NCBI GenBank assembly: GCA_017481035.1
Contig: JAFUQI010000060.1
Coordinates: forward strand, 159 to 64,158
From: Alphaproteobacteria bacterium
GTDB taxonomy: Bacteria; Pseudomonadota; Alphaproteobacteria; RUG11792
Reading direction: 5' to 3'
DNA length: 64,000 nt
The notes below the pieces were generated by a model. That model was given only the letters and a program-made list of their open reading frames with translations, made no database searches and was not told the DNA's origin. Of the stretch, positions 1-54,556 are shown piece by piece (within the stretch, counting starts at the first letter, position 1; every line of letters starts with the position of its first letter). The translations under genes were made by a program, and so were the position numbers.

Positions 1-207
1 AAGATCTCTAAAGGTAAGAAGGTTACTATAACAGGATCTAAACCTTTATATATAGATAGTAATATAAATGTATATGGTAGAGTTATATTCAATACTCCTG
101 TTAAAGGTAAGGGTAGTATTACTATATATCCAGGAGGATCTTATAGATGTTCTAAACCTATAGGTATTAAGGTTATTAATAAAGGAGGTAAGATAGTGTT
201 TAAGTAA
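1..207 (+). CDS. C-terminal end of a secreted repeat protein (partial, runs off the left edge); paralog of 52067-54556 and 63230-64000
   Basis: Frame 1 is open from base 1 to TAA at 205-207 (...VTITGSKPLYIDSNINVYGRVIFNTPVKGKGSITIYPGGSYRCSKPIGIKVINKGGKIVFK). The Cys...GIKV...VF tail resembles the ECQY...TGIKFINKTVNITVEF and DCTY...TGIKFDGDRDHVVFVL modules of the 601-aa ORF. A hairpin terminator follows. Confidence 0.55.
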   Translation, partial: KISKGKKVTITGSKPLYIDSNINVYGRVIFNTPVKGKGSITIYPGGSYRCSKPIGIKVINKGGKIVFK

Positions 208-240
208 GAGAAAGCCTATTTATAGGCTTTCTTTTGTGTT
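208..240 (+). terminator. Rho-independent terminator between the convergent partial CDS and recN
   Basis: gagAAAGCCTAtttaTAGGCTTTctt stem followed by a TTTTGTGTT run. The stem is palindromic, so it could act in both directions. Confidence 0.6.
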
Positions 241-325
241 GGGGGGGTGTTGGTTGGTAATACAACCAATCAAATACGCATAGGATGTAGATGAGCTAAC
301 GATAAAATACCGTAGATAACAATGT

Positions 326-1951
326 TTAATCAACTATTAATTTTCTAGCAGTTTCCAATGCTTCATTATTGATTGATTTTCCTGAAATCATTCGAGCTAT
401 CTCTTGAAGTTTATCTGATTCAGACAAAATCTCAGCATTAACAACGGCTATTGATTTTTGAAAACTTTTCTGTATTTTTATATGTTGATTTGATTTGGCT
501 GCAACCTGAGGAGAGTGAGTAATTGAAATTACTTGTATCGTTTCGGCAAGGTTTCTCATCTCGATTCCCATTGAATATGCGGCTAATCCACCTATACCAA
601 TATCAATCTCGTCAAAAATTATCGTTTTGGCGTTGAGGGTTTTGCCGACTACAACTTTTAAAGCAAAATTTAATCTGGCTAATTCACCTCCAGATGCTGT
701 AGTTTTAATCGAATTAAATACTGAAGATGTGTTATTAAAATTTGCCATAAAGTCTATAAAATTTTTGCCTTCCTGTGTTTCAACACTATCCGACTCTGCA
801 ACAAATATCTTAAAAACTGCATTTTGAAGCATAAGCTTTGGTAAAAGTTCATTTATTAAGTTTGAGAGATGTTCCGCGGCCTGAGCTCTATAGGAAGTTA
901 GAATTCCTGCATATTTCTCGTATTCTGTTTTTGCCTTGTCGTAATCATCTTGTAAGCTATTTAGTTTGTCTGAAAAGTCTTTGGAAATATTTAATTTATT
1001 TTTTATTTCAAGTAAAAATTCATACAATATACCAGGCGAAACGTTATACTTTCTTGCAAGTGTACGTATCGTTGACAATCGATCATCTATTTCTTGTAGC
1101 TTTTTAGTGGCGTCTTCGCCTTCAGATGAGATTGACAGTAACTCTGATGAAATATCTGCTAATTCGATTGATATCGCGTCAATTCTTTCGCTTAAGCTTG
1201 CTATAGAAACATCATCGACCCTTGACAGGTATTTTGATATCAATGCAAATTTGTTGTCAGCATTTATTGCATTCATTATATCTGCAGATCGCTTAATTGC
1301 CTCAATATTAGATGAAAGTTTTGCAATTTTTATTCTTGATTCAAGTAAAGTTGTTTCTTCATTTATTTGTATATTCGTATCTTCCAATTCTTTTGCTGCT
1401 TGCAAAAAATATTCCTTATCGCGTTCAATTAATTTTGCATCATCTTTTATTTTTTGAAGTTCTTTTTCTATATCCTTTAATGTAATGAACGTATTTCTAA
1501 CTTTGTTTAATACATCTAGAGAATCCTTATTAATCGAACTCATAAATCTATCCAACAAAATAAGTTGATCTTCGCTTTTTCTTATTGTGTCAAGTTGTCC
1601 TGTTATATCTACGATATCGTTAAAAATCTCTTTCAAATGCTTAACACTTGCGTTAAGTTCGTTTATATACACTGAAGATTTGCCGTTTTTGTCTATAACC
1701 CGTTTTATTGAGTGTATTGGATTTCCAATGCTATCATATTGATCTTTAAAGCACAGCTCTACAGATGTTGTTAAATCTTTGTTTTTTTGTATATCCTTGC
1801 TAGATAAATTTCCAAAACAAAATTTTATCGCATCTATGATAATTGATTTTCCAGCACCAGTTTCTCCTGTAATCACATTAAAATCTTTCGAAAAATTTAC
1901 TTCTAATTCGTCTATAATTATAAAGTTAGTTATCGATATTGTTGTAAGCAC
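326..1951 (-). CDS. recN: DNA repair protein RecN
   Basis: 541 aa. Has N-terminal Walker A GETGAGKS, a long coiled-coil middle, a C-terminal SMC/ABC signature ASGGELARLNFALK and Walker B IIFDEIDIGIGG. Confidence 0.9.
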   Translation of the reverse strand: MLTTISITNFIIIDELEVNFSKDFNVITGETGAGKSIIIDAIKFCFGNLSSKDIQKNKDLTTSVELCFKDQYDSIGNPIHSIKRVIDKNGKSSVYINELNASVKHLKEIFNDIVDITGQLDTIRKSEDQLILLDRFMSSINKDSLDVLNKVRNTFITLKDIEKELQKIKDDAKLIERDKEYFLQAAKELEDTNIQINEETTLLESRIKIAKLSSNIEAIKRSADIMNAINADNKFALISKYLSRVDDVSIASLSERIDAISIELADISSELLSISSEGEDATKKLQEIDDRLSTIRTLARKYNVSPGILYEFLLEIKNKLNISKDFSDKLNSLQDDYDKAKTEYEKYAGILTSYRAQAAEHLSNLINELLPKLMLQNAVFKIFVAESDSVETQEGKNFIDFMANFNNTSSVFNSIKTTASGGELARLNFALKVVVGKTLNAKTIIFDEIDIGIGGLAAYSMGIEMRNLAETIQVISITHSPQVAAKSNQHIKIQKSFQKSIAVVNAEILSESDKLQEIARMISGKSINNEALETARKLIVD

Positions 1952-2245: not shown

Positions 2246-2268
2246 CTAGCCATAGTACCAACATCTTA

Positions 2269-2605
2269 CCTAAGCCACCTTAACTTCGTAAGAAGTGAAC
2301 CAGTTGCGGTCGCAGCGCGACAGCCGTACTACAACAACTATATATAAACAAACATATAAGACTACTACTATATTATTTTTGAAAAAGTATTGTAGTATCA
2401 CATCGTTTCTTACTGATAATATATAACATTATGTAAGCTTAATGTTTAATGCGTCTCGGTATAGGACGATATTTAAAGCCGGCCGCGCCTCGCGTATTTT
2501 CAGCGGCCGGCTTATGAAAGAATAAGCATCCTATAACGTTTTATAATCATTAAGCATGCCGTGAAAATGGCGCTTTGCGCCGCATGCCTATGCATAATGC
2601 AATAA
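2269..2605 (+). repeat. Left copy of a composite repeat of about 337 bp; inverted partner at 58706-59042
   Basis: By-eye alignment to the reverse complement of 58706-59042 shows roughly 15 differences. One central stretch, of which I checked well over 100 bp, is identical (cggtcgcagcgcgacagccgtactacaacaactatatataaacaaacatataagactac...). It contains the GCCGGCCGC...GCGGCCGGC and GGCGCtttGCGCC hairpins. Confidence 0.85.
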
Positions 2606-19273: not shown

Positions 19274-22117
19274 ATGAATAAACTTTATACATATATGTTT
19301 GTGTTATCTATATCACGTATGATATATTCATGTGATGATATGTATTATATGTACGAATGTGATGATGATATACAACCTATAACTTTAATAGATAACAATA
19401 TAACTTTAAAGGATGGAGAAATAACATTAGATGATATCTCTAGACAGACAGATAGTGCAAGTACTTTAACAGAGGAAGAGAAGCAAGTTAAGTATATATT
19501 AGACTTTGACTTACCTATTGGAGAAGGAAAGTATAGAGAATATGAATATAAGATAGAAGAAATAATTAAGACTGTTACAGATGAAAACGGAAATATGTCT
19601 TATTCTAAGTATGTTGAGGCTTGGAATAATAAACATAGAGACAATAGAATAGATATATCAAAAGATTGGTTCTATGGTAATACTGTTGAGGACTTGTTGG
19701 GATTAAATATAAATAATCAAGAAGAACTAAGAAATTATTATCATAATATTCTAGTTAAACGAATTGCCAGCGATGAACGTAATCATAGAATGCTGCCAGA
19801 GTTTACTTCTTTTATAACATATGATCTTAATAATATGAAAGACGAAGAGTTTAAAGCTACGATACTTCAAGGAATACTCGTAAACATGCTTTACGGAGTA
19901 AGTCTTTCAACTTATATTGAAAAACTGAAGCATAAAATTACTAAAATGAATTATGAAGGGTTTAACGTTGCTGTAAATACACTGAAGTTAAAATTAGAAG
20001 AAGCATTTCCAAATAGCAATCCTAATGATTTAAAAAAGGAATTGTTTGGGTTTCTGCTAGATAATGACTTGATAAAGGACAACTTTGATCTTTTTGCACA
20101 AGTATACGATGCTTTCATACAATCAAACGCAACTGAACCGAAAATATATGCAGAAGAAATATCAAAAAAATTAGGGAAAGACGATAAACGGAAAGAAATT
20201 GATGGAATTATAAAAGAACTACTTAAATTAGATGCAAAGAAATTACACGAAGATGTAAACAAAAAAGAAATGTCTTTTTCTCAGTATAGAAAATATTTTT
20301 ACGTATATCCATACAATAAGAATTATAATAACAAACAAAAAATTATACAAAGAATTGACGAAGTAAAGGATGAAATATATAAAACAATTAATGATTCAGG
20401 GCTTCTTGGATTCTTAAATACTGCTTTTGTTAAGGAAGGCAATGTAGAATATGCAGATGGATTTGCGCGAGCTGAAATATTGAGTCCAACTTTTCAAGGT
20501 TACGCCACGAAGAACCAACATGGTTATATTTTAGGAAAACAAAATGTTGTTATGCTGTTCAACATAATACAACAAAAATCAGAAAACGAATATACGTACG
20601 ACATGTCGCTATGCAAAGCTATAGATTTTTCGAATTGTTTTGAAACAGATGATTACGGAGTTCCAACTGAGAACTTTTGTAATTATGTCAATTATATATG
20701 CGAACAAATAAACAAGGCTTTAAATCATGGTGTTGAAATAAAGAATGTAAATAAAGATGAAGAAATGGTTGAAAGAATATGTGTTATAAAGTCTAATAGC
20801 ACAAATGATGACATTCTTGTTACAGTAACGCAATTTTTTCCAGGAGATAGTAAGACATGTCATTTTGTATTTAACACTATCTTTAAATATCCATTTTGCA
20901 AAATTTCTGGAAACGAAGATGAACACAAAAACTTTATGGGAAAAATTTTAAAAGTAATGGGTGAACTTAAAAGAAAAAATTTTTCTAACTATGACCTGTG
21001 TCTAATAAAATCACAAGATATTTTTGAATCAAAGGAGGAATACAACAACGCTAGAGATGAATACAAAATATTTTTTGATTTTGAAAATCTTCTCAAATCG
21101 TATGAAATATGCGGTATAAATAATCTGAAAATAAATGAATTAACTTGTGATGATACAAACAAATTAATAAGCATATCTTTCGTTCAAAAAGATAATCATA
21201 GTCAAGGTAAATTTATAACAAAAAAAACAGAAGAATTGTCTATAAGTGAAGCTAATGCGTTGTTAACTAAAAATAATTATCAAGGTACAACAAACGGACT
21301 GAAAACAATAAGAATAACAAGAGATCAAGTTAAAAACGAAACAAAAATTGAAGTTGATTTTGACACAGAAAAAAAAGCTAGAACAATAAAAAAAGCTGGA
21401 ACAATTAAAGTTATAACTGATACTTGCGACACACTAACTGATGATAAACTTAAACTACTGAGATATCCAGTTTCTCTAATCCCTAGTGACTTAACGTCAT
21501 CTGAAGTACATTATAACTTTAACGGCAAAGTGATCAAAATTCAATGTCCATTTGACAAATATGAAGAATATTTGTTTAAACTTATAAAGTTATCAAATAG
21601 CGACATACAACAAGACACTTACATAGAAAAAAACGGTATATTCTTATCAGATGGAATGAATATATTGGATGACTCTGATTATGAAAGTATCAAAAAAGGT
21701 GAAATATATAGGCTTTATACTAGTACCAAAACATCACTTCATGATAAGTATAATCCATATTTTTATCAACTGGATACTAGTAACAAAGATAAAGATATAA
21801 AGGTATTAAATCCTATTAAATACGCTTATGCTAAACGCCTTTCCAAACTTTCGCCTAGTAGGATTCCAGATAAAATAAACATAATGTCGAAATCAACAGC
21901 CGAAAAACAAACAAAATTAAAATATATATTATGCACAGACGGACAGAGCTGCAAGTTTCCATTTTGGCAAATAGCAAATTTATACTATAAAGAAAATGAG
22001 TCTGGATACTTATTAATTGATAGAATAACAAAAGATTATAAAGCGAGAGGAGAGTATCGAAAGGATGTTCGGGTTTGTGCAATTAAGTCTTTACATCAAG
22101 CGACAGAGTTAGAATAG
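19274..22117 (+). CDS. Large Cys-rich orphan protein with a hydrophobic N-terminus (possible secreted or effector protein)
   Basis: 947-aa uninterrupted ORF. The N-terminus is MNKLYTYMFVLSISRMIYSC, with well over a dozen Cys, mostly in the middle and C-terminal parts. I recognise no catalytic motif. Confidence 0.6.
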   Translation: MNKLYTYMFVLSISRMIYSCDDMYYMYECDDDIQPITLIDNNITLKDGEITLDDISRQTDSASTLTEEEKQVKYILDFDLPIGEGKYREYEYKIEEIIKTVTDENGNMSYSKYVEAWNNKHRDNRIDISKDWFYGNTVEDLLGLNINNQEELRNYYHNILVKRIASDERNHRMLPEFTSFITYDLNNMKDEEFKATILQGILVNMLYGVSLSTYIEKLKHKITKMNYEGFNVAVNTLKLKLEEAFPNSNPNDLKKELFGFLLDNDLIKDNFDLFAQVYDAFIQSNATEPKIYAEEISKKLGKDDKRKEIDGIIKELLKLDAKKLHEDVNKKEMSFSQYRKYFYVYPYNKNYNNKQKIIQRIDEVKDEIYKTINDSGLLGFLNTAFVKEGNVEYADGFARAEILSPTFQGYATKNQHGYILGKQNVVMLFNIIQQKSENEYTYDMSLCKAIDFSNCFETDDYGVPTENFCNYVNYICEQINKALNHGVEIKNVNKDEEMVERICVIKSNSTNDDILVTVTQFFPGDSKTCHFVFNTIFKYPFCKISGNEDEHKNFMGKILKVMGELKRKNFSNYDLCLIKSQDIFESKEEYNNARDEYKIFFDFENLLKSYEICGINNLKINELTCDDTNKLISISFVQKDNHSQGKFITKKTEELSISEANALLTKNNYQGTTNGLKTIRITRDQVKNETKIEVDFDTEKKARTIKKAGTIKVITDTCDTLTDDKLKLLRYPVSLIPSDLTSSEVHYNFNGKVIKIQCPFDKYEEYLFKLIKLSNSDIQQDTYIEKNGIFLSDGMNILDDSDYESIKKGEIYRLYTSTKTSLHDKYNPYFYQLDTSNKDKDIKVLNPIKYAYAKRLSKLSPSRIPDKINIMSKSTAEKQTKLKYILCTDGQSCKFPFWQIANLYYKENESGYLLIDRITKDYKARGEYRKDVRVCAIKSLHQATELE

Positions 22118-41151: not shown

Positions 41152-41875
41152 ATGAAACACACTAAGTTAGTTATGTTAGGTATTCTAACCTCAAGTCTAT
41201 ATGCATCCGGATTCTATGGAGGTGTTGATATAGGTGCCTCAATAATTAATGCTAAGGCTAATGGTTACGCAGGAATAAATGTACAAGAACTATTGTTTGA
41301 TATAAATAAATCCAAAGTTAAGTTAGCACCAGGAGCTTTTGTTGGTTATAAAATCAACTCAGAGGCGAATGGGGGGGGTAGAACTATCTTTTAATGCGAA
41401 TATTGGCAAGACTACATATAAGCTAGCAGACTTATATAAGTTTCGAGAAATGATAGGACAAGCTGATATGTATAAATTTACATATCTTTGTTTAAAATTG
41501 TATGAACGATTTTCTGGAACGCTGAAAGGATTAATATCGCATAAGTTCGGAGGTATAGAATTATATATAACTGGTGGGATTAAAGTTAAAAATGTTAAGT
41601 ATAGCTGTGTTGATGTGGCACAATTTAGTACAGTAAGATATACACATAATATGAACTATCAATCAAAAAAGAAAACACATATGACTCCAGTGTTAGGTTG
41701 CGGCATTAAATTTCCTTTTAAAGACAGTTGTTTTATGCGATTAGAATATACATTTGAGTTTCCAGTAAAATTGAAATTAAGCTTGGCTGAAGATCAATCA
41801 ACATGGAAGTTTGGAAGCGAACGCGTTAAACATAATGTTCATAGTATGAAACTTGGAATTGGCACAATGTTTTAA
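41152..41875 (+). pseudogene. Outer-membrane beta-barrel protein (OmpA-like/Opa-like surface antigen fold) interrupted by a G8 tract frameshift
   Basis: Has a signal peptide (MKHTKLVMLGILTSSLYASG) and a C-terminal ...MKLGIGTMF (terminal Phe). The two ORFs overlap at G8 (41371-41378). Removing one G gives ...SEANGGVELSFNANIG... as one protein of about 240 aa. Confidence 0.65.
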
Positions 41876-49741: not shown

Positions 49742-50581
49742 TTAGAAACCAAGTGCGTTCTTAAGCCACTTGAAAGGCTTTAATATAATATCGAAAAATG
49801 AAAAAGTGTTATTATTTGTGTTCAATAATGTATTGTTATCATTTGTATTCAATTTTGAGATATGATTATTCCAAATTATTTGAGCTTCTTCTTTTGTGGC
49901 ATTTACCAATGATTCTGCAAGTCTTCTATTTGTCTGAAATATCATATAACACATAGGTTGTCTCCAGTTACCACCCCAAATATTAAAACCATGTTTTTTG
50001 AAAATTTGTGCGATTTCTGGTGTTATCATGCCAGGACGTTGAAGGCCTCGGTTCATAAACCTATCATCTGAACCTTTTTCTTGTATTATTGTTTTATGTA
50101 TTGCATCTAACTCTGCTGGATCTGATATATACCTGCTCAAATCATCTTTTACTTGTTTTTTGTCTTCTTCATAATCTGAAGATCTTTGTGGAATTACATA
50201 ATTATGAATAGCATCAAAAGACGGATTCATATATGGGTTTACATCGATAGCAAGTCCAAAGGCATGAATAGATGGAGTTTTTGTTGGGTCGTTTCGTATC
50301 TCTCTATGATTATAAATACCAATTGAATAAATTGGAAAATTCATATCATATAGTTCTTTAAAAATTTCCTGGATTGAATCGCAAGCGACATCCAAAGCCT
50401 GGACCTTCATTGTTGATTCTCCCCCTGAAAAAGTTCTGTGTTGTATTTCTATTGTTTGTATTCGTCCTCCTATCTTTCCTTCTAATTCTTCTAGTTTCAT
50501 AAATTCCGCAGAATTAATTGCATTCGCAAAAAGCAATAACCCACAAATTTTTTTTACCATATTCATAATAACAATAAACAT
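49742..50581 (-). CDS. Secreted M15-family (VanY/DD-carboxypeptidase-like) peptidase homolog
   Basis: 279 aa. Has a signal peptide, the SxHxxGxAxD motif in SIHAFGLAIDVNP, and the later block GFNIWGGNW...MCYMIFQ. Confidence 0.6.
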   Translation of the reverse strand: MFIVIMNMVKKICGLLLFANAINSAEFMKLEELEGKIGGRIQTIEIQHRTFSGGESTMKVQALDVACDSIQEIFKELYDMNFPIYSIGIYNHREIRNDPTKTPSIHAFGLAIDVNPYMNPSFDAIHNYVIPQRSSDYEEDKKQVKDDLSRYISDPAELDAIHKTIIQEKGSDDRFMNRGLQRPGMITPEIAQIFKKHGFNIWGGNWRQPMCYMIFQTNRRLAESLVNATKEEAQIIWNNHISKLNTNDNNTLLNTNNNTFSFFDIILKPFKWLKNALGF

Positions 50582-50623
50582 CTACTTGCGAAAGTATAAT
50601 ACTTAACTGCAAAATAGTCAATA

Positions 50624-50917
50624 TTAAAAAGATTTTTCAAATATACCTTTAAAAAAGATATTATTAAAAGGCGTTAATTTTGAAGTAAGCTTATATTCAT
50701 TACCGTTCCATCTAATAGCAGATATTCTTTTATATCTGAACGATGGAGGTGGTTTTGGAAAAATGACATTATATTGAGATTTATTTAGTTGATCTGGAGC
50801 TATATTCGCTCTTGTGTTTATAATATCATTATAAATTTTTGCTGTTGTTGAAGTTATGTCTTCATTTTTTTCTAGCAATACTATGCGTTCATATAGTGTA
50901 GAAATTAGTTTCTTCAT
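50624..50917 (-). CDS. Phage/GTA head-tail adaptor (head closure, RcGTA g7-like)
   Basis: 97 aa. The pattern LYERIVLL...TRANIAP...ISAIRWNGNEYKLTS...FFKGIFEK fits the Phage_H_T_join layout. Directly follows the g6-like gene. Confidence 0.5.
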   Translation of the reverse strand: MKKLISTLYERIVLLEKNEDITSTTAKIYNDIINTRANIAPDQLNKSQYNVIFPKPPPSFRYKRISAIRWNGNEYKLTSKLTPFNNIFFKGIFEKSF

Positions 50918-50932
50918 TTTATGCCTCCATTT

Positions 50933-51460
50933 TTAATGTAGAGTTAATGGACGATGGCTATGTATAATATGTTTGACATATTTTGACTCGAGAACGTCCT
51001 CATCAGAACATTCGTAGATATTTTTTGCTATTTGAAGAACTGCAAATTGTAAGTCACAAGATACCTCAAATTGCTTATCAGTTATGCCTGCTGTATATAT
51101 AACTTCAATTGGATCCTTGTATCCATTTGTAATTATTATCGTTTTATCATTGCATGAATCTACTCTATATTCTATATCTTCCTTTGTTTTTTCATTAATG
51201 CGTTTTACAGAATATACTTTTATAACTTGTCTTATCGGAAGGATAACTTTTCGTGTTGGAGAAATTTCATTCGTATAATCTGTATATTTGAACTTTTTCT
51301 TTAAAATAGGTCTTTCTATATTTTTTTCTAATATATCAGTTGCCATATTAATAATTGTTTTAAGGTAACCATCTTCATGATCATGATCAATTCTTAGATG
51401 CGCTTTTAGTATTGAGATTGGTAAAACATAAGAGTTTGCCTGTTCTATTACTATATTCAT
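50933..51460 (-). CDS. Phage gp6-like head-tail connector (RcGTA g6-like)
   Basis: 175 aa. The N-terminal SILKAHLRIDHDHEDGYLKTIINMATDILEKNIERPIL is the typical connector motif. Confidence 0.6.
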   Translation of the reverse strand: MNIVIEQANSYVLPISILKAHLRIDHDHEDGYLKTIINMATDILEKNIERPILKKKFKYTDYTNEISPTRKVILPIRQVIKVYSVKRINEKTKEDIEYRVDSCNDKTIIITNGYKDPIEVIYTAGITDKQFEVSCDLQFAVLQIAKNIYECSDEDVLESKYVKHIIHSHRPLTLH

Positions 51461-52066: not shown

Positions 52067-53872
52067 TCAACACTCACTCGTTTCAGAGTCACAGTCTTCA
52101 TAATACTCTTGATCGCATGAATCTGTTTCTATGTTAGAAGTCCTACGATGTTGGTTTAGATAATCTATTCTATTTTGTGGCAATACAAAAACTACATGAT
52201 CTCTATCACCGTCAAATTTTATACCTGTATTATTCTCTAGCGTTTCCAACCGCATATCTTTTCTTACATTTTTTGTTAAGTATGTACAATCTAAAGGCAC
52301 CCTAAATCGAACAGGACTATCTTCTGTACCTTGTAAAGTTATTGTAAAGTTTTGTGTTTGAGTTTCTATGTATTTTGGAAGTACGCATATTGAGTCTGCT
52401 TCAAATATACATTTGCCGTTAGACGCAAATGATTCAAGATCTCTAACATCAGTAAAATCTATAATCGATTCAGATCTATTTATTAATGTCCCATTTTCTC
52501 CAATATATAAAAATGTATTGTTTGCAAATTTCATATTCCCACAATTTTCAAATTCTGCTGAACTAGATGATATGCTTAGACCAGACTTTTCTGATATTGT
52601 ACTTTTAATATCGATCTTTCCAGTAGTTGGGATGTATTCGATGATGTCAATGCCATTTTCTCGCTCGGTGAAATATTCTTTTATTATTGTTTCATTTGTT
52701 ATATTGTTATCTGCTTTCCATTTAAGTAGAGCTATATTAATTAAATTTTTTAGTGTTTTATTTGTATCAATATCTTTAAGTTCATTCATCGCAATTATTT
52801 TGAAGGAATGGGCATTCTTTTCTAGCCACTTTTTATTGTCTTTTTGCCATTTTAATATTGAATTAGCTAGATCGCTTGCATTAATGCACTCATCTATGCC
52901 TAGTTTTTTATATGTTATATGTTTGATGCCACTTTGAACTTTTTTGTGACCGTTGTTTAGAAATTTATCATTAACTATTAATGTTCCACCAGTTATATCA
53001 ATGCTATTATAATTTATTGAATCTTTTAGCAATCTTAAATTTACAAAAGTTTTATCTTTTCCTGGCTTTAAAATTATATGTCCATAATTTTTAAAACCAT
53101 TTTTATACTCAAAATTTTCTCCATTTTGGCTACCAATTATTTCCAATGTTTCATTTTGAGAAATGTGTTTTTTATCTAGTTGATCTTCTTCAAATTCAAC
53201 TGTAATATTAACTGTTTTATTAATAAACTTTATTCCTGTTTCGTCTCTAATTGCTTGTAACAAGTTCTGGTAATTTTTATTAATATATTGACATTCCTTT
53301 GGTATGATTACAATCAGTGTCTTTTTGACCTCTTTTATATTGTATAAATCTACCGTTATACATTCAGCTCTTTTAGTTATTTTCTTTGGTATTATGATTC
53401 TAGATAACTCTTTCGGTTCAAGTAAAAAATTATGCTTAGAAAGATCATAACTTTCAGACATATCAAATATACTACCTGATTCACCAATAATAACAGCACT
53501 ATCGTCAGAGCCTATAGTGCTGTTCTCTTTAAGCTTTATTATTCCACTATTGTTAATATTAATTTCACTATTAAGTATGCCTGATATATTTATTATTCCT
53601 TTTTTGCCATTATTAAAAATTCCATTTCCTGTAATTGAAACATCAGAATTTTTGCTTGTATTAAAAGTACCGTGGTTATTTATTTCTCCATTTATGACAA
53701 AAGTTATACCGGATCCGTTATTTTCAATAGAACCACCTTCCAGAACATTTATGGTATTCTTTTCTGCTAAGTCTATCGTACTGTTAACATCGCATTTTAG
53801 TTTACCGCTAATAAAAAGTCCAGAACCTGGATCGTAGTAAGCTGTGGTTTTCTTTGTAGGTTTGCCATACAA
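52067..53872 (-). CDS. Asn/Gly-turn (beta-helix-like) repeat protein with two Cys-containing GIKF modules; the frame stays open upstream to 53944
   Basis: 601 aa. Has repeats such as IENNGSGITFVINGEINNHGTF..GNGIFNNGKKGIINISG. Shows an internal duplication (...IIPKECQYINKN...ETGIKFINKTVNITVEF versus ...RVPLDCTYLTKN...NTGIKFDGDRDHVVFVL). The tail is acidic and Cys-rich. The track start is a TTG. Confidence 0.65.
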   Translation of the reverse strand: MYGKPTKKTTAYYDPGSGLFISGKLKCDVNSTIDLAEKNTINVLEGGSIENNGSGITFVINGEINNHGTFNTSKNSDVSITGNGIFNNGKKGIINISGILNSEININNSGIIKLKENSTIGSDDSAVIIGESGSIFDMSESYDLSKHNFLLEPKELSRIIIPKKITKRAECITVDLYNIKEVKKTLIVIIPKECQYINKNYQNLLQAIRDETGIKFINKTVNITVEFEEDQLDKKHISQNETLEIIGSQNGENFEYKNGFKNYGHIILKPGKDKTFVNLRLLKDSINYNSIDITGGTLIVNDKFLNNGHKKVQSGIKHITYKKLGIDECINASDLANSILKWQKDNKKWLEKNAHSFKIIAMNELKDIDTNKTLKNLINIALLKWKADNNITNETIIKEYFTERENGIDIIEYIPTTGKIDIKSTISEKSGLSISSSSAEFENCGNMKFANNTFLYIGENGTLINRSESIIDFTDVRDLESFASNGKCIFEADSICVLPKYIETQTQNFTITLQGTEDSPVRFRVPLDCTYLTKNVRKDMRLETLENNTGIKFDGDRDHVVFVLPQNRIDYLNQHRRTSNIETDSCDQEYYEDCDSETSEC

Positions 53873-53944
53873 ATCTATCTGAGTTTCTTCTTTTCCAAAA
53901 CTAAATATTGTATTCGATATTTGAAAATATTCACCATTGTCGTT

Positions 53945-54556
53945 TTAATAAAATAAACCGTTTAGGCCAAAAACATCATCTTTTCTGTATAGTTTTAATA
54001 TTTCTTGGTCGTCAACTAGTATAGTAGATTTTTTGTTATCAATGTTGACAGTAATTTCTGTAGTTTTGGGGAGCAGTTGAATTATTCCTCCACTATTATT
54101 CGTAAGTGTTCCATTTAAGAAAATCGCACTATTAGTTGAAAAATGACCTGTATTTGTCATGTTGCCCCAAATAGTAAATTCAGTGTCTGGTGATTTGGTT
54201 AATTTATCAACTGGTATGATTACATCTGCTGAGCCTACTACGTGCTGCCTATCAATAGGCTGTAAGATATGGATAAAATCATCTTGGCTGATATCGCTAT
54301 GTTTATCTGTATGATATTTTATATTACCTTCATTTTTAAAAGTACCTCTATCTGATATAACGATTTGACTTTTATTATTTACGATAATCGTATTGTTTTG
54401 TAAATTAGAGTAATCTCCATATATATTGAGTTTTTCTCCATTTAAAGTTATATCGCTATACTCATATGCTCGAGTGTTTTTGTTGTTGTTTAGGTCTGTT
54501 ATTGTTGCGGCATTAATAGTCCCAAACAGTATAAAACAGAAAAACAGACGAAACAT
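53945..54556 (-). CDS. Signal-peptide-bearing N-terminal part of the same repeat protein (ends at an in-frame TAA)
   Basis: 203 aa. Has the signal peptide MFRLFFCFILFGTINAA and motifs FKNEGNI, MTNTGHF and LTNNSGGII. It is in the same reading frame as 52067-53872. Confidence 0.6.
   Translation of the reverse strand: MFRLFFCFILFGTINAATITDLNNNKNTRAYEYSDITLNGEKLNIYGDYSNLQNNTIIVNNKSQIVISDRGTFKNEGNIKYHTDKHSDISQDDFIHILQPIDRQHVVGSADVIIPVDKLTKSPDTEFTIWGNMTNTGHFSTNSAIFLNGTLTNNSGGIIQLLPKTTEITVNIDNKKSTILVDDQEILKLYRKDDVFGLNGLFY

What the first reader, a model, noticed from the sequence alone, without database searches (positions are those of the whole stretch)
52067..54556. Lineage-specific family of secreted Asn/Gly-turn repeat proteins with a duplicated Cys-containing GIKF module
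Three loci in 64 kb (1-207, 52067-54556, 63230-64000) encode related proteins.
- They have a Sec-type signal peptide. This is seen at the two loci whose N-terminus lies inside the window (54556 and 63230).
- They have irregular repeats built around xNNGx(I/F) or NxTGx(I/F) turns, suggestive of a parallel beta-helix.
- They carry a module of about 50-60 aa with the pattern (I/V)P-x-(E/D)-C-x-Y-(I/L)...(T/I)GIK(F/V)...(V/I)xF. That module is present twice in the 601-aa ORF (IIPKECQYINKN...TGIKFINKTVNITVEF and RVPLDCTYLTKN...TGIKFDGDRDHVVFVL), once near the right window edge (IPEDCKYITD) and in shortened form at the left edge (YRCSKPIGIKVINKGGKIVFK).
- No autotransporter beta-barrel follows. The C-terminus of the 601-aa ORF is acidic and Cys-rich and has no terminal aromatic residue, so the export route is not obvious.
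This is a candidate adhesin or effector family.
Basis: seen in the sequence. Interest (0 to 1): 0.7.

Follow-up and report, generated by a model that had tools for sequence, protein, structure and literature searches.

The report
Variable secreted beta-helix protein family
An uncultured, small-genome gut bacterium of ruminants carries about twenty copies of a previously undescribed exported beta-helix protein that evolve fast and are often switched off. This is what a changeable surface or host-contact coat looks like, and the gene flagged here is a doubled copy broken by one stop codon.

Summary
The three loci encode related proteins of a family with no Pfam, NCBIfam, PHROG or PDB relative.

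The interval 52067-54556 is one 829-codon gene. In this genome a single in-frame TAA (53945-53947) splits it into 203-aa and 601-aa ORFs; the other public assemblies of this locus that were recovered read GAA there.

The window matches a contig of NCBI MAG "Alphaproteobacteria bacterium" (tags IJ481_*, 32% GC, ruminant gut). At least 18 IJ481 tags belong to the family.

AlphaFold2 models a typical member confidently (pLDDT 83, pTM 0.83) as a short-strand beta-solenoid.

The 829-aa protein holds two such units (cap1 vs cap2 z=10.3).

Paralogues show dN/dS 1.3-1.8 with ORFs largely kept open. Strain SNPs concentrate in family genes. Other copies carry an in-frame TAA or out-of-frame poly-G tracts in the signal-peptide codons.

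Best reading: Sec-exported, variable, adhesin-like proteins without an autotransporter barrel. Export route and function remain untested.

The parts
52067..54556 (-). One family gene of 829 codons plus stop. It is the NCBI ORF IJ481_02980 (601 aa) plus the upstream 203-aa ORF. It encodes a divergent 'double' family member: signal peptide, beta-solenoid with cap (unit 1), helical linker, second beta-solenoid with cap (unit 2), acidic Cys tail.
   Evidence: same frame; intact 829-aa product P0001/P0170 in other assemblies, and P0169 equals the window's 601-aa ORF; two profile matches.
53945..53947 (-). Premature in-frame TAA at codon 204. The other recovered assemblies of this locus read GAA (Glu); on the + strand, position 53947 is A here and C there.
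54509..54556 (-). Predicted Sec signal peptide MFRLFFCFILFGTINA|A.
   Evidence: Direct reading of the sequence. The AlphaFold model shows an N-terminal helix followed by a low-confidence stretch. No dedicated predictor was run.
53165..53710 (-). Unit 1 (aa 283-464): beta-solenoid turns built on NNG/NSG motifs, plus cap module 1.
   Evidence: family profile positions 75-263, i-E 5e-10; alternating short strands, pLDDT 55-79.
53192..53485 (-). Cap module copy 1 (aa 358-455): GSIFDMSESYDLS ... IIPKK ... IPKECQYI ... ETGIKF ... ITVEF.
   Evidence: cap1 vs cap2 z=10.3; cap1 vs right-edge cap z=12.6.
52652..52894 (-). Helical insert or linker (aa 555-635) between the two units.
   Evidence: helices 560-573, 575-593 and 600-616, at low confidence. 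A comparable helical insert occurs in the divergent member L091 11750-12670.
52157..52609 (-). Well-modelled part of unit 2 (aa 650-800): beta-solenoid turns plus cap module 2 (cap at 52181-52480: SIIDFTDVRDLES ... VLPKY ... VPLDCTYL ... NTGIKF ... VVFVL).
   Evidence: i-E 3e-21; pLDDT 86-94 for aa 670-790; cap2 vs right-edge cap z=20.7.
52070..52135 (-). Acidic Tyr/Cys-rich C-terminal tail NIETDSCDQEYYEDCDSETSEC, modelled as disordered.
   Evidence: pLDDT below 50 for aa 804-829. Similar tails occur in other members: NECEYVDEC, NEYEYVDECD, NEYESVGEC, NFEYCSYDQQVSCDDDE.
63230..64000 (+). First 257 of 299 codons of a typical family member: signal peptide at 63230-63298, beta-solenoid, and a cap module from 63743 that runs off the window.
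   Evidence: full 299-aa product from L001; profile E 2e-111; model of the close paralogue P0005.
1..207 (+). Last 68 codons plus stop of a family member of the second subtype. This subtype has a Cys-less cap followed by a C-terminal extension of about 110 aa ending ...KGGKIVFK. Only the extension lies inside the window.
   Evidence: L004 fragment, profile E 6e-27; same architecture in P0014, P0016 and P0017.

Best explanation
The three loci belong to a lineage-specific multigene family of Sec-exported proteins, typically about 260-370 aa. Each is a right-handed-type beta-solenoid of roughly 21-22-residue turns (xNNGxI / TLxNTGTIxL). Many members then carry a short disordered acidic Tyr/Cys tail.

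The host is an uncultured, low-GC alphaproteobacterium from the ruminant gut. Its MAG is small, with IJ481 tags seen only up to 03935.

I infer that these are exposed interaction proteins, either adhesin-like or a surface coat. Their sequence and expression appear to be kept variable in three ways: gene duplication (including the tandem two-unit fusion in the 829-aa protein), fast amino-acid change, and frequent on/off lesions.

In this genome the 829-codon gene is 'off'. A G-to-T change made codon 204 TAA. At most a 203-aa signal-peptide-bearing stub, plus a non-exported 601-aa remainder, could be produced.

Shown: family membership, the fold model, the duplication, the nonsense allele, the variation pattern. 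Inferred: export beyond the inner membrane, surface location, binding function, true phase switching.
For: - Family and orphan status. Profile searches recover about 20 clusters covering the whole profile. 18 distinct IJ481_* tags of the window's own MAG are among the hits. Nothing was found in Pfam, NCBIfam, PHROGs or PDB sequences.
- Restricted distribution. No relatives in GTDB species representatives, JGI metagenomes, phages or plasmids.
- Fold. AlphaFold2 of P0005 gives pLDDT 83.1 and pTM 0.83: runs of 3-7-residue strands, then strands plus one helix (249-260) in the module. Unit 2 of the 829-aa protein is modelled at pLDDT 86-94. The best fold neighbours, although not significant, are all parallel beta-helix proteins: autotransporter Ssp, PL3 pectate lyases, HxuA/HMW1, Ag43, tailspikes. 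Distant profile hits are the repeat parts of large proteins that carry Dockerin, PEP-CTERM, Ig-like (Big_3_5) or Hint domains.
- Gram-negative envelope context: LpxD, OmpH, MlaE, TolB, TamB.
- Selection. Nei-Gojobori dN/dS is 1.27-1.82 in all six pairs of four paralogues, with dS 0.13-0.32. Neutral simulations give medians of 0.84-1.10. Neutral drift of 9% per site would put a mean of 3.6 stops into such a gene, with P(no stop)=0.016. Of those four copies, two are fully open, one has a single stop and one a single frameshift.
- Strain SNPs cluster in family genes. 5 of 8 differences over 6.35 kb fall in the 207 bp of the left-edge gene. 2 of 3 differences over 21.9 kb fall in the middle and right-edge genes.
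- On/off lesions. TAA in this gene. An in-frame TAA (TTA to TAA) in another copy, seen in two assemblies. G7 and G8 tracts in the signal-peptide codons of two copies are one base out of frame, whereas a paralogue reads GGGAGGAGGC in frame.
- Family genes sit singly between housekeeping genes.
Against: - No experimental or read-level data. Poly-G length heterogeneity was not observed directly, so the frameshifts and stops could be plain decay.
- Only one dN/dS pair (1.82) exceeds the 97.5% neutral bound under every model tried. Gene conversion among paralogues can distort dS.
- No outer-membrane translocator, anchor, lipobox that passes the PROSITE rule, or adjacent secretion system was found. 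The proteins could therefore stay in the periplasm.
- The fold searches gave no significant match (best E 0.3), so handedness and kinship of the solenoid rest on the AlphaFold model and on weak neighbours.
- The MAG may contain strain-variant contigs that inflate the copy count.
Confidence: 0.55

Rival explanations
1. They are effectors delivered into or onto a eukaryotic host cell (for example a gut protist) by a dedicated secretion system. The disordered acidic Tyr/Cys tail would serve as the export or host-modification signal.
For: - The MAG is small and low in GC, which is at least compatible with a host-dependent lifestyle (locus tags; composition). Reduced-genome ruminant-gut Alphaproteobacteria are described in PMC8199421.
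- The acidic C-terminal tail recurs and is modelled as disordered.
- Fast evolution.
- An orphan GspE/PilB-type ATPase lies next to the right-edge gene.
Against: - Every complete member has an N-terminal Sec-type signal, which is unusual for type III, IV or VI substrates.
- The tail is missing from many intact members (P0002, P0003, P0006, P0009, P0010).
- No secretion-system cluster is seen near any of the six loci inspected.
- Association with a protist was not tested, and the one paper read on rumen-ciliate symbionts lists no alphaproteobacterium.
Confidence: 0.15
2. The family is decaying junk: recently duplicated genes drifting neutrally toward pseudogenes, without current function.
For: - dN/dS is near or above 1.
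- Nonsense and frameshift lesions occur in at least four copies.
- Many copies are annotated as partial.
Against: - Most copies keep open reading frames that neutral drift would have broken (P(no stop)=0.016 at half the observed divergence).
- A 35-residue core (GTIDISNITDLS...GSTFILPKSI) is nearly invariant across paralogues.
- The signal-peptide region shows dN/dS 0.25-0.57.
- The 829-aa gene is intact in the other recovered assemblies.
- Most 'partial' calls are contig ends, not lesions.
Confidence: 0.12
3. They are small secreted or periplasmic carbohydrate-active beta-helix enzymes, comparable to family-3 pectate lyases, that act on plant or host glycans in the gut.
For: Family-3 pectate lyases (about 195 aa) are among the top fold neighbours (TM about 0.25-0.34 normalised to the target). 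The habitat is rich in pectin.
Against: - Fold matches are not significant (E at or above 1).
- There is no Pfam pectate-lyase or Beta_helix hit.
- About twenty fast-evolving copies in a MAG this small do not fit a metabolic enzyme.
- Conserved residues lie in turns and in the cap rather than forming an evident acidic or basic catalytic cluster. This last point is from reading the alignment and was not tested on the structure.
Confidence: 0.06
4. They are receptor-binding or tail-fibre proteins of a prophage or gene-transfer-agent remnant.
For: The middle gene lies about 600 bp upstream of a head-tail adaptor gene (50933-51460) and near an M15 peptidase gene (49742-50581). Tailspikes appear among the weak fold neighbours.
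Against: - No PHROG hit for the family and no tblastn hit in 50,697 phage records.
- Other copies sit next to ribosomal, pheS, ubiA and pnp genes with no phage genes nearby.
- Members carry Sec signal peptides.
- A relative's uvrA-downstream region holds unrelated genes.
Confidence: 0.03

Closest known systems
Autotransporter (type Va) passenger domains, e.g. Serratia Ssp (PDB 8e7f), E. coli Ag43 (7koh), Salmonella BigA (Pfam PF27417 BigA_3rd)
   Same: Both have a Sec signal peptide and a beta-solenoid built from short Asn/Gly-turn repeats. Ssp is the top (non-significant) fold neighbour. Two members have precomputed BigA_3rd hits, labelled 'faint' where a grade is given.
   Different: This family has no C-terminal 12-stranded beta-barrel and no Pfam Autotransporter hit. 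The proteins are only about 260-370 aa (829 aa for the double one). They end in a distinct strand/helix/strand piece and an acidic tail instead.
Chlamydial polymorphic membrane proteins (Pmp)
   Same: Both are large paralogous families of predicted beta-helical exported proteins in a reduced genome. Some Pmp copies are switched by poly-G tracts or disrupted in some strains; that statement about Pmps is from my own knowledge.
   Different: Pmps are 90-180 kDa autotransporters defined by GGA(I/L/V) and FxxN repeats (Pfam Chlam_PMP). There was no such Pfam hit and no barrel here.
Two-partner-secretion TpsA proteins (HxuA 4i84, HMW1 2odl)
   Same: They are beta-helical exported proteins without their own barrel, and they appear as weak fold neighbours.
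   Different: No TPS-domain Pfam family appeared among the hits for family members. TpsA proteins are usually far larger. No TpsB gene is seen next to any copy.
Family-3 pectate lyases (C. bescii 3t9g/4z06, Bacillus 1ee6)
   Same: They are similar in size (about 195 aa) and are single-domain parallel beta-helices. They have the highest target-normalised TM scores (0.25-0.34).
   Different: There is no sequence or profile similarity, the fold E-values are at or above 1, and the multigene, fast-evolving, on/off behaviour is unlike an enzyme.
Phase-variable contingency-locus surface proteins (Neisseria Opa, Campylobacter and Helicobacter poly-G genes) and Anaplasma Msp2/P44 variable families
   Same: They resemble this family in behaviour: multicopy surface-protein genes with homopolymer tracts in 5' coding regions, truncated copies and high variability. 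Statements about those systems are from my own knowledge.
   Different: Those proteins are beta-barrels with unrelated folds. Switching here is inferred from assemblies only. No expression-site or donor-cassette arrangement was seen.

Membership tests
Classical autotransporter (type Va secretion) | C-terminal beta-barrel translocator domain (Pfam Autotransporter PF03797) | tested here: not met
   Pfam scans of the window proteins and seven family members gave no such hit. The proteins end in a roughly 100-aa strand/helix/strand piece plus a short tail.
Classical autotransporter (type Va secretion) | N-terminal Sec signal peptide followed by a beta-helical passenger | tested here: met
   Signal-like N-termini were read directly. 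The AlphaFold2 beta-solenoid has pLDDT 83. Two members have precomputed BigA_3rd hits, labelled 'faint' where a grade is given.
Chlamydial Pmp family | Pfam Chlam_PMP repeats (GGA[ILV], FxxN) | tested here: not met
   No Chlam_PMP hit at E up to 1.
Two-partner secretion TpsA | N-terminal TPS domain (Pfam Haemagg_act) and an adjacent TpsB transporter gene | tested here: not met
   No such Pfam hit. Neighbouring genes at six loci are housekeeping genes. Fold similarity to HxuA/HMW1 is not significant.
Pectate lyase family 3 / generic Pfam Beta_helix, PbH1 repeats | A profile match to a pectate-lyase or Beta_helix model above the curated threshold | tested here: not met
   Only a sub-threshold NosD hit (E 0.05, 13.4 bits against a cutoff of 23.6) in one member. 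Foldseek E is at or above 1.
Phase-variable contingency loci | A simple-sequence tract in the coding region or promoter whose length varies within a population and shifts the reading frame | tested here: inconclusive
   G7 and G8 tracts sit inside the signal-peptide codons of two paralogues and are one base out of frame. A third paralogue has an interrupted, in-frame version. Length variation at a single locus could not be tested without reads. The three window loci themselves have no such tract.
The new family itself (typical members P0002-P0018) | A significant match to the family profile that includes the core GTIDISNITDLS...GSTFILPKSI and the ...TG(F/L/I)xF...VxF cap | tested here: met
   Right-edge gene E 2e-111. 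Middle gene E 1e-23, with two units. Left-edge gene E 6e-27 through its part outside the window.

The most novel reading that the evidence does not exclude
This is a previously undescribed class of barrel-less, Sec-exported mini beta-helix coat proteins. The conserved C-terminal piece, with or without the acidic Tyr/Cys tail, would dock them to the cell surface or to a partner by an unknown route. A small-genome gut alphaproteobacterium would vary this coat through a repertoire of about 20 genes, using diversifying selection, unit duplication and poly-G or nonsense on/off switching. That would make it an antigenic or host-range variation system analogous to chlamydial Pmps or Anaplasma Msp2, but built from a new protein family.
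Probability: 0.3. Interest if true: 0.6.

Novelty: new variant of a known kind. Interest (0 to 1): 0.45.

Why it matters
Uncultured Alphaproteobacteria with reduced genomes are a recognised component of the ruminant gut (PMC8199421). How they live is not established by anything I examined.

At least 18 of this MAG's genes belong to one orphan family, in a MAG whose locus tags were seen only up to 03935. That family is fast-evolving, frequently switched off and predicted to be exported. It is the most obvious candidate for the organism's contact surface with whatever it depends on: host epithelium, a protist or other microbes.

It also offers a compact beta-solenoid-plus-cap scaffold with no known relative. 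And it is a case where export of a beta-helix protein across a Gram-negative outer membrane cannot be explained by an autotransporter barrel or a TpsB partner.

For genome annotation, it shows that the deposited '601-aa hypothetical protein' is a fragment of a nonsense-interrupted gene.

Tried and rejected
- Pfam, NCBIfam and PHROG scans, and a PDB sequence search with the family profile: no usable hit.
- Foldseek of the confident model against PDB and BFVD: no match below E 0.3, only generic beta-helices.
- Search of GTDB species representatives and of JGI metagenomes with the family's invariant peptides: no relatives.
- tblastn against phage and plasmid collections: nothing.
- Synteny check downstream of uvrA in the nearest relatives (81% and 69% UvrA identity): unrelated genes, so the locus is not conserved.
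- Stop-codon reassignment or readthrough as an explanation for the in-frame TAA: rejected. TAA is the commonest stop among the long ORFs of the window, and the site is a simple G/T polymorphism between assemblies.
- Promoter and terminator scan around the gene: counts no different from shuffles.
- Full-length AlphaFold2 of the 829-aa protein: poor overall (pLDDT 55; aa 82-244 below 50), so nothing is claimed for the N-terminal 250 aa.
- Literature search for rumen protist symbionts: the paper read covers other phyla only.
- The idea that the 947-aa orphan (19274-22117) is a family member: no profile hit.
Full report
**What is in the sequence**

The window is about 32% GC. It carries ordinary chromosomal genes of a Gram-negative bacterium: uvrA, eno, rpsT, lpxD, ompH, mlaE, tolB, tamB, priA, dxs and others.

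On the minus strand, a 203-aa ORF (53945-54556, ATG) and a 601-aa ORF (52067-53872, TTG) are listed separately. They are in the same frame. Only a TAA at 53945-53947 separates them, and the 24 codons between that TAA and the TTG continue the repeat pattern.

A search with the 601-aa ORF returned a single hit, an 829-aa protein (P0001). It is identical to the read-through translation except for Glu at codon 204. That protein is encoded on an ENA contig (L001) and a Logan contig (L002). L001 differs from the window at 3 of 21,934 bases and L002 at 1 of 3,792. One of those differences is the G/T at this codon. A third intact 829-aa variant also exists (P0170).

The 601-aa ORF is deposited in NCBI as IJ481_02980 (MBQ8651466.1) of 'MAG: Alphaproteobacteria bacterium', on a 64,426-bp contig. 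The window therefore matches that MAG contig. The finding's interval holds one gene with a nonsense allele.

**Are the three loci related?**

The right-edge gene is complete in L001. It is 299 aa and ends ...NECEYVDEC.
- It aligns to two regions of the 829-aa protein with composition-adjusted BLASTP E-values of 4e-12 (aa 673-822) and 6e-9 (aa 285-460).
- A profile of 18 family sequences (A2) scores the right-edge gene at E 2e-111.
- The same profile scores the middle gene at E 1e-23, with two separate units, aa 283-464 and 572-793.
- The two modules of the middle protein match each other at z=10.3 against 2000 shuffles.

The 68 residues of the left-edge gene that lie inside the window match nothing. 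Another assembly (L004) holds 207 residues of that gene. Its upstream part is 57% identical over 56 aa to the right-edge protein (E 9e-11) and hits the profile at E 6e-27.

The left-edge gene is therefore a family member of a second subtype. That subtype has a Cys-less module followed by an extension of about 110 aa ending ...KGGKIVFK, as in P0014, P0016, P0017, P0019 and P0026. Its Cys is Ser in L004.

**The family**

A profile search of 5.8 billion clustered proteins found 17 members. An exhaustive HMMER search of 1.84 billion representatives found about 20 clusters that cover the whole profile.
- Below those come roughly 120 large proteins that match only the repeat part of the profile (positions about 55-180).
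- Of the eight of these that I scanned, five carry Dockerin, PEP-CTERM, Ig-like (Big_3_5) or Hint domains.

A third search and a cluster look-up added more members. In total, 18 distinct IJ481_* locus tags of the window's own MAG belong to the family. The highest IJ481 tag seen is 03935, and many members are cut by contig ends. Strain-variant contigs may inflate the count.

A further divergent member was found by eye next to pheS in L091. It is 306 aa, has a helical insert and ends NFEYCSYDQQVSCDDDE. It was confirmed with HMMER's filters off (25 bits, E 2e-7).

No member has a Pfam, NCBIfam or PHROG assignment or a PDB sequence relative. The only label is a precomputed Pfam hit, PF27417 BigA_3rd, on two members, graded 'faint' where a grade is given.

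The family's invariant peptides are absent from GTDB species representatives and from JGI metagenomes. tblastn finds nothing in phage or plasmid collections.

By UvrA, the nearest genomes are uncultured Alphaproteobacteria or proteobacteria. Two of them are RUG-labelled MAGs (81%, 69% and 67% identity).

Several source samples carry the label XIEF21. I take this, without direct confirmation, to be the ruminant gastrointestinal survey of Xie et al. 2021, which describes reduced-genome uncultured Alphaproteobacteria of the order RF32 (PMC8199421). Whether this MAG belongs to RF32 was not tested.

**Structure**

AlphaFold2 of the typical member P0005, run with the family alignment, gave mean pLDDT 83.1 and pTM 0.83.
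- Residues 1-21 are of low confidence, consistent with a signal peptide.
- A run of 3-7-residue strands separated by 2-4-residue turns follows. By the strand spacing I read about three strands per turn of roughly 21-22 residues.
- Next come strands 191-234, a helix at 249-260 and a strand at 271-275. These coincide with the module and have pLDDT 92-97.
- The tail is disordered.

Foldseek found no significant neighbour in PDB or BFVD (best E 0.3). Nearly all the top weak neighbours are right-handed parallel beta-helices: Ssp, PL3 pectate lyases, HxuA/HMW1, Awp adhesins, Ag43 and tailspikes.

I therefore read the module as the C-terminal cap of a beta-solenoid. This is an inference from the secondary-structure string and the single-domain pTM; I could not inspect coordinates.

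The 829-aa protein folded poorly as a whole (pLDDT 55). Unit 2 was modelled at pLDDT 86-94 with the same order of elements. Unit 1 showed the same pattern at pLDDT 55-79. Three helices (aa 560-616) lie between the units.

**Evolutionary behaviour**

- *dN/dS.* For four paralogues with available DNA, Nei-Gojobori dN/dS over the whole gene is 1.27-1.82 in all six pairs, with unsaturated dS of 0.13-0.32. Simulated neutral evolution with this base composition gives medians of 0.84-1.10 and upper 97.5% bounds of 1.34-1.67. The values sit at or above neutrality, and one pair is clearly above it. The signal-peptide codons are the exception (0.25-0.57).
- *ORFs are kept open.* Neutral drift of only 9% per site would introduce a mean of 3.6 stop codons, with P(none)=0.016. 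Of those four copies, two are fully open, one has a single stop and one a single frameshift. A 35-residue core is also nearly invariant. Together these point to selection for change on a functional protein rather than to decay.
- *Strain differences concentrate in the family.* 5 of 8 SNPs between the window and L004 fall in the 207 bp of the left-edge gene, and 4 of them change the protein. 2 of 3 SNPs against L001 fall in the middle and right-edge genes.
- *On/off lesions recur.* The TAA here is one. An in-frame TAA (TTA to TAA within a TLNNTG turn) is present in a copy seen in two assemblies. In a subfamily with signal peptide MSK.INKYK..LYLAILGGGNIGEVYS, tracts of G7 (L093) and G8 (L094) are each one base out of frame. 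The intact paralogue in L095 reads GGGAGGAGGC instead.

Runs of seven or more G or C are expected 0.3 times per 64 kb at this base composition.

**Context**

Family genes lie singly between housekeeping genes: after uvrA, after the ribosomal-protein/rpoA/tsaE block, beside pheS, beside ubiA/ompA and before pnp. No secretion-system cluster is adjacent. The only nearby component is a lone GspE/PilB-type ATPase at 61178-62596.

The nearest relatives have unrelated genes downstream of uvrA.

**Interpretation**

The best-supported reading is a lineage-specific family of Sec-exported, adhesin-like beta-solenoid proteins. They are kept variable by duplication, rapid substitution and on/off mutation. 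The flagged gene is a two-unit member that is switched off, or dying, in this MAG.

Neither surface exposure nor binding nor true phase switching has been shown. Rivals are a host-delivered effector family, neutral decay, a PL3-like enzyme and a phage or GTA receptor-binding protein. They are weighed in the dedicated sections of this report.

The family fails the defining tests for autotransporters (no barrel), Pmps, TpsA proteins and pectate lyases. It works like their passenger or beta-helix parts but is not a member of any of them.

**Verdict**

The feature is real and the family new. Its kind, a variable exported beta-helix repertoire of a host-associated bacterium, is familiar. The unexplained parts are the export and anchoring route and the role of the cap and the acidic Cys tail.

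Noticed in passing
window 41152-41875 (+), G8 at 41371-41378: A small outer-membrane beta-barrel-like gene is split by a G8 tract. It has a signal peptide MKHTKLVMLGILTSSLYA and ends ...KLGIGTMF. A G7 tract would restore the frame (...EANGGVELSFNANIG...). The same G8 is present in another assembly, and two strain SNPs lie just downstream (41431, 41438). It is a candidate phase-variable OMP, currently 'off'.
   Followed up: partly
window 19274-22117 (+): A 947-aa orphan protein with no Pfam domain and a lipoprotein-like N-terminus (...SRMIYSCDDMYYMYECDDD). Its acidic Tyr/Cys motif resembles the family tails. All 3 SNPs between the window and L089 over 21 kb fall inside this gene. It does not match the family profile.
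   Followed up: partly
L093 55-61; L094 19690-19697; L095 1977-2076: Family paralogues of the 'MSK.INKYK' subfamily carry G7 or G8 tracts inside the signal-peptide codons, each one base out of frame. The intact paralogue has an interrupted GGGAGGAGGC.
   Followed up: partly
L091 9494-10525 and L092 3457-4488: Another family gene is split into 154-aa and 174-aa ORFs by an in-frame TAA (TTA to TAA in a TLNNTG turn). The split is identical in two assemblies.
   Followed up: yes
L091 11750-12670 (-): A divergent 306-aa family member with a helical insert and the tail NFEYCSYDQQVSCDDDE. It was missed by default HMMER filters and detected only with --max (25 bits).
   Followed up: yes
window 2268-2604 and 58705-59042: A 338-bp intergenic element is present twice, in opposite orientation, at 95.6% identity. 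It contains G+C-rich palindromic stretches and has no Rfam match.
   Followed up: no
window 208-330: A hairpin (AAAGCCTAT..ATAGGCTTT plus a T-rich tail) follows the left-edge gene, then an intergenic G7 tract at 241-247. Two independent assemblies break at window position 314.
   Followed up: no
window 49742-51460 (-): An isolated phage-type head-tail adaptor gene (PHROG 442, E 2e-13), a 97-aa orphan and an M15-family peptidase with a signal-like N-terminus lie just downstream of the middle gene. They may be a prophage or gene-transfer-agent remnant.
   Followed up: partly
window 61178-62819 (-): A lone GspE/PilB-type secretion ATPase (472 aa) is preceded by a 71-aa signal-peptide-bearing ORF. 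Both are transcribed divergently from the right-edge family gene. No other secretion or pilus genes are nearby.
   Followed up: no
L009 5215-7688: In the closest relative (UvrA 81% identical), the position downstream of uvrA holds a 265-aa and a 351-aa signal-peptide-bearing orphan instead of a family gene. This suggests the site is a variable slot for exported proteins.
   Followed up: no
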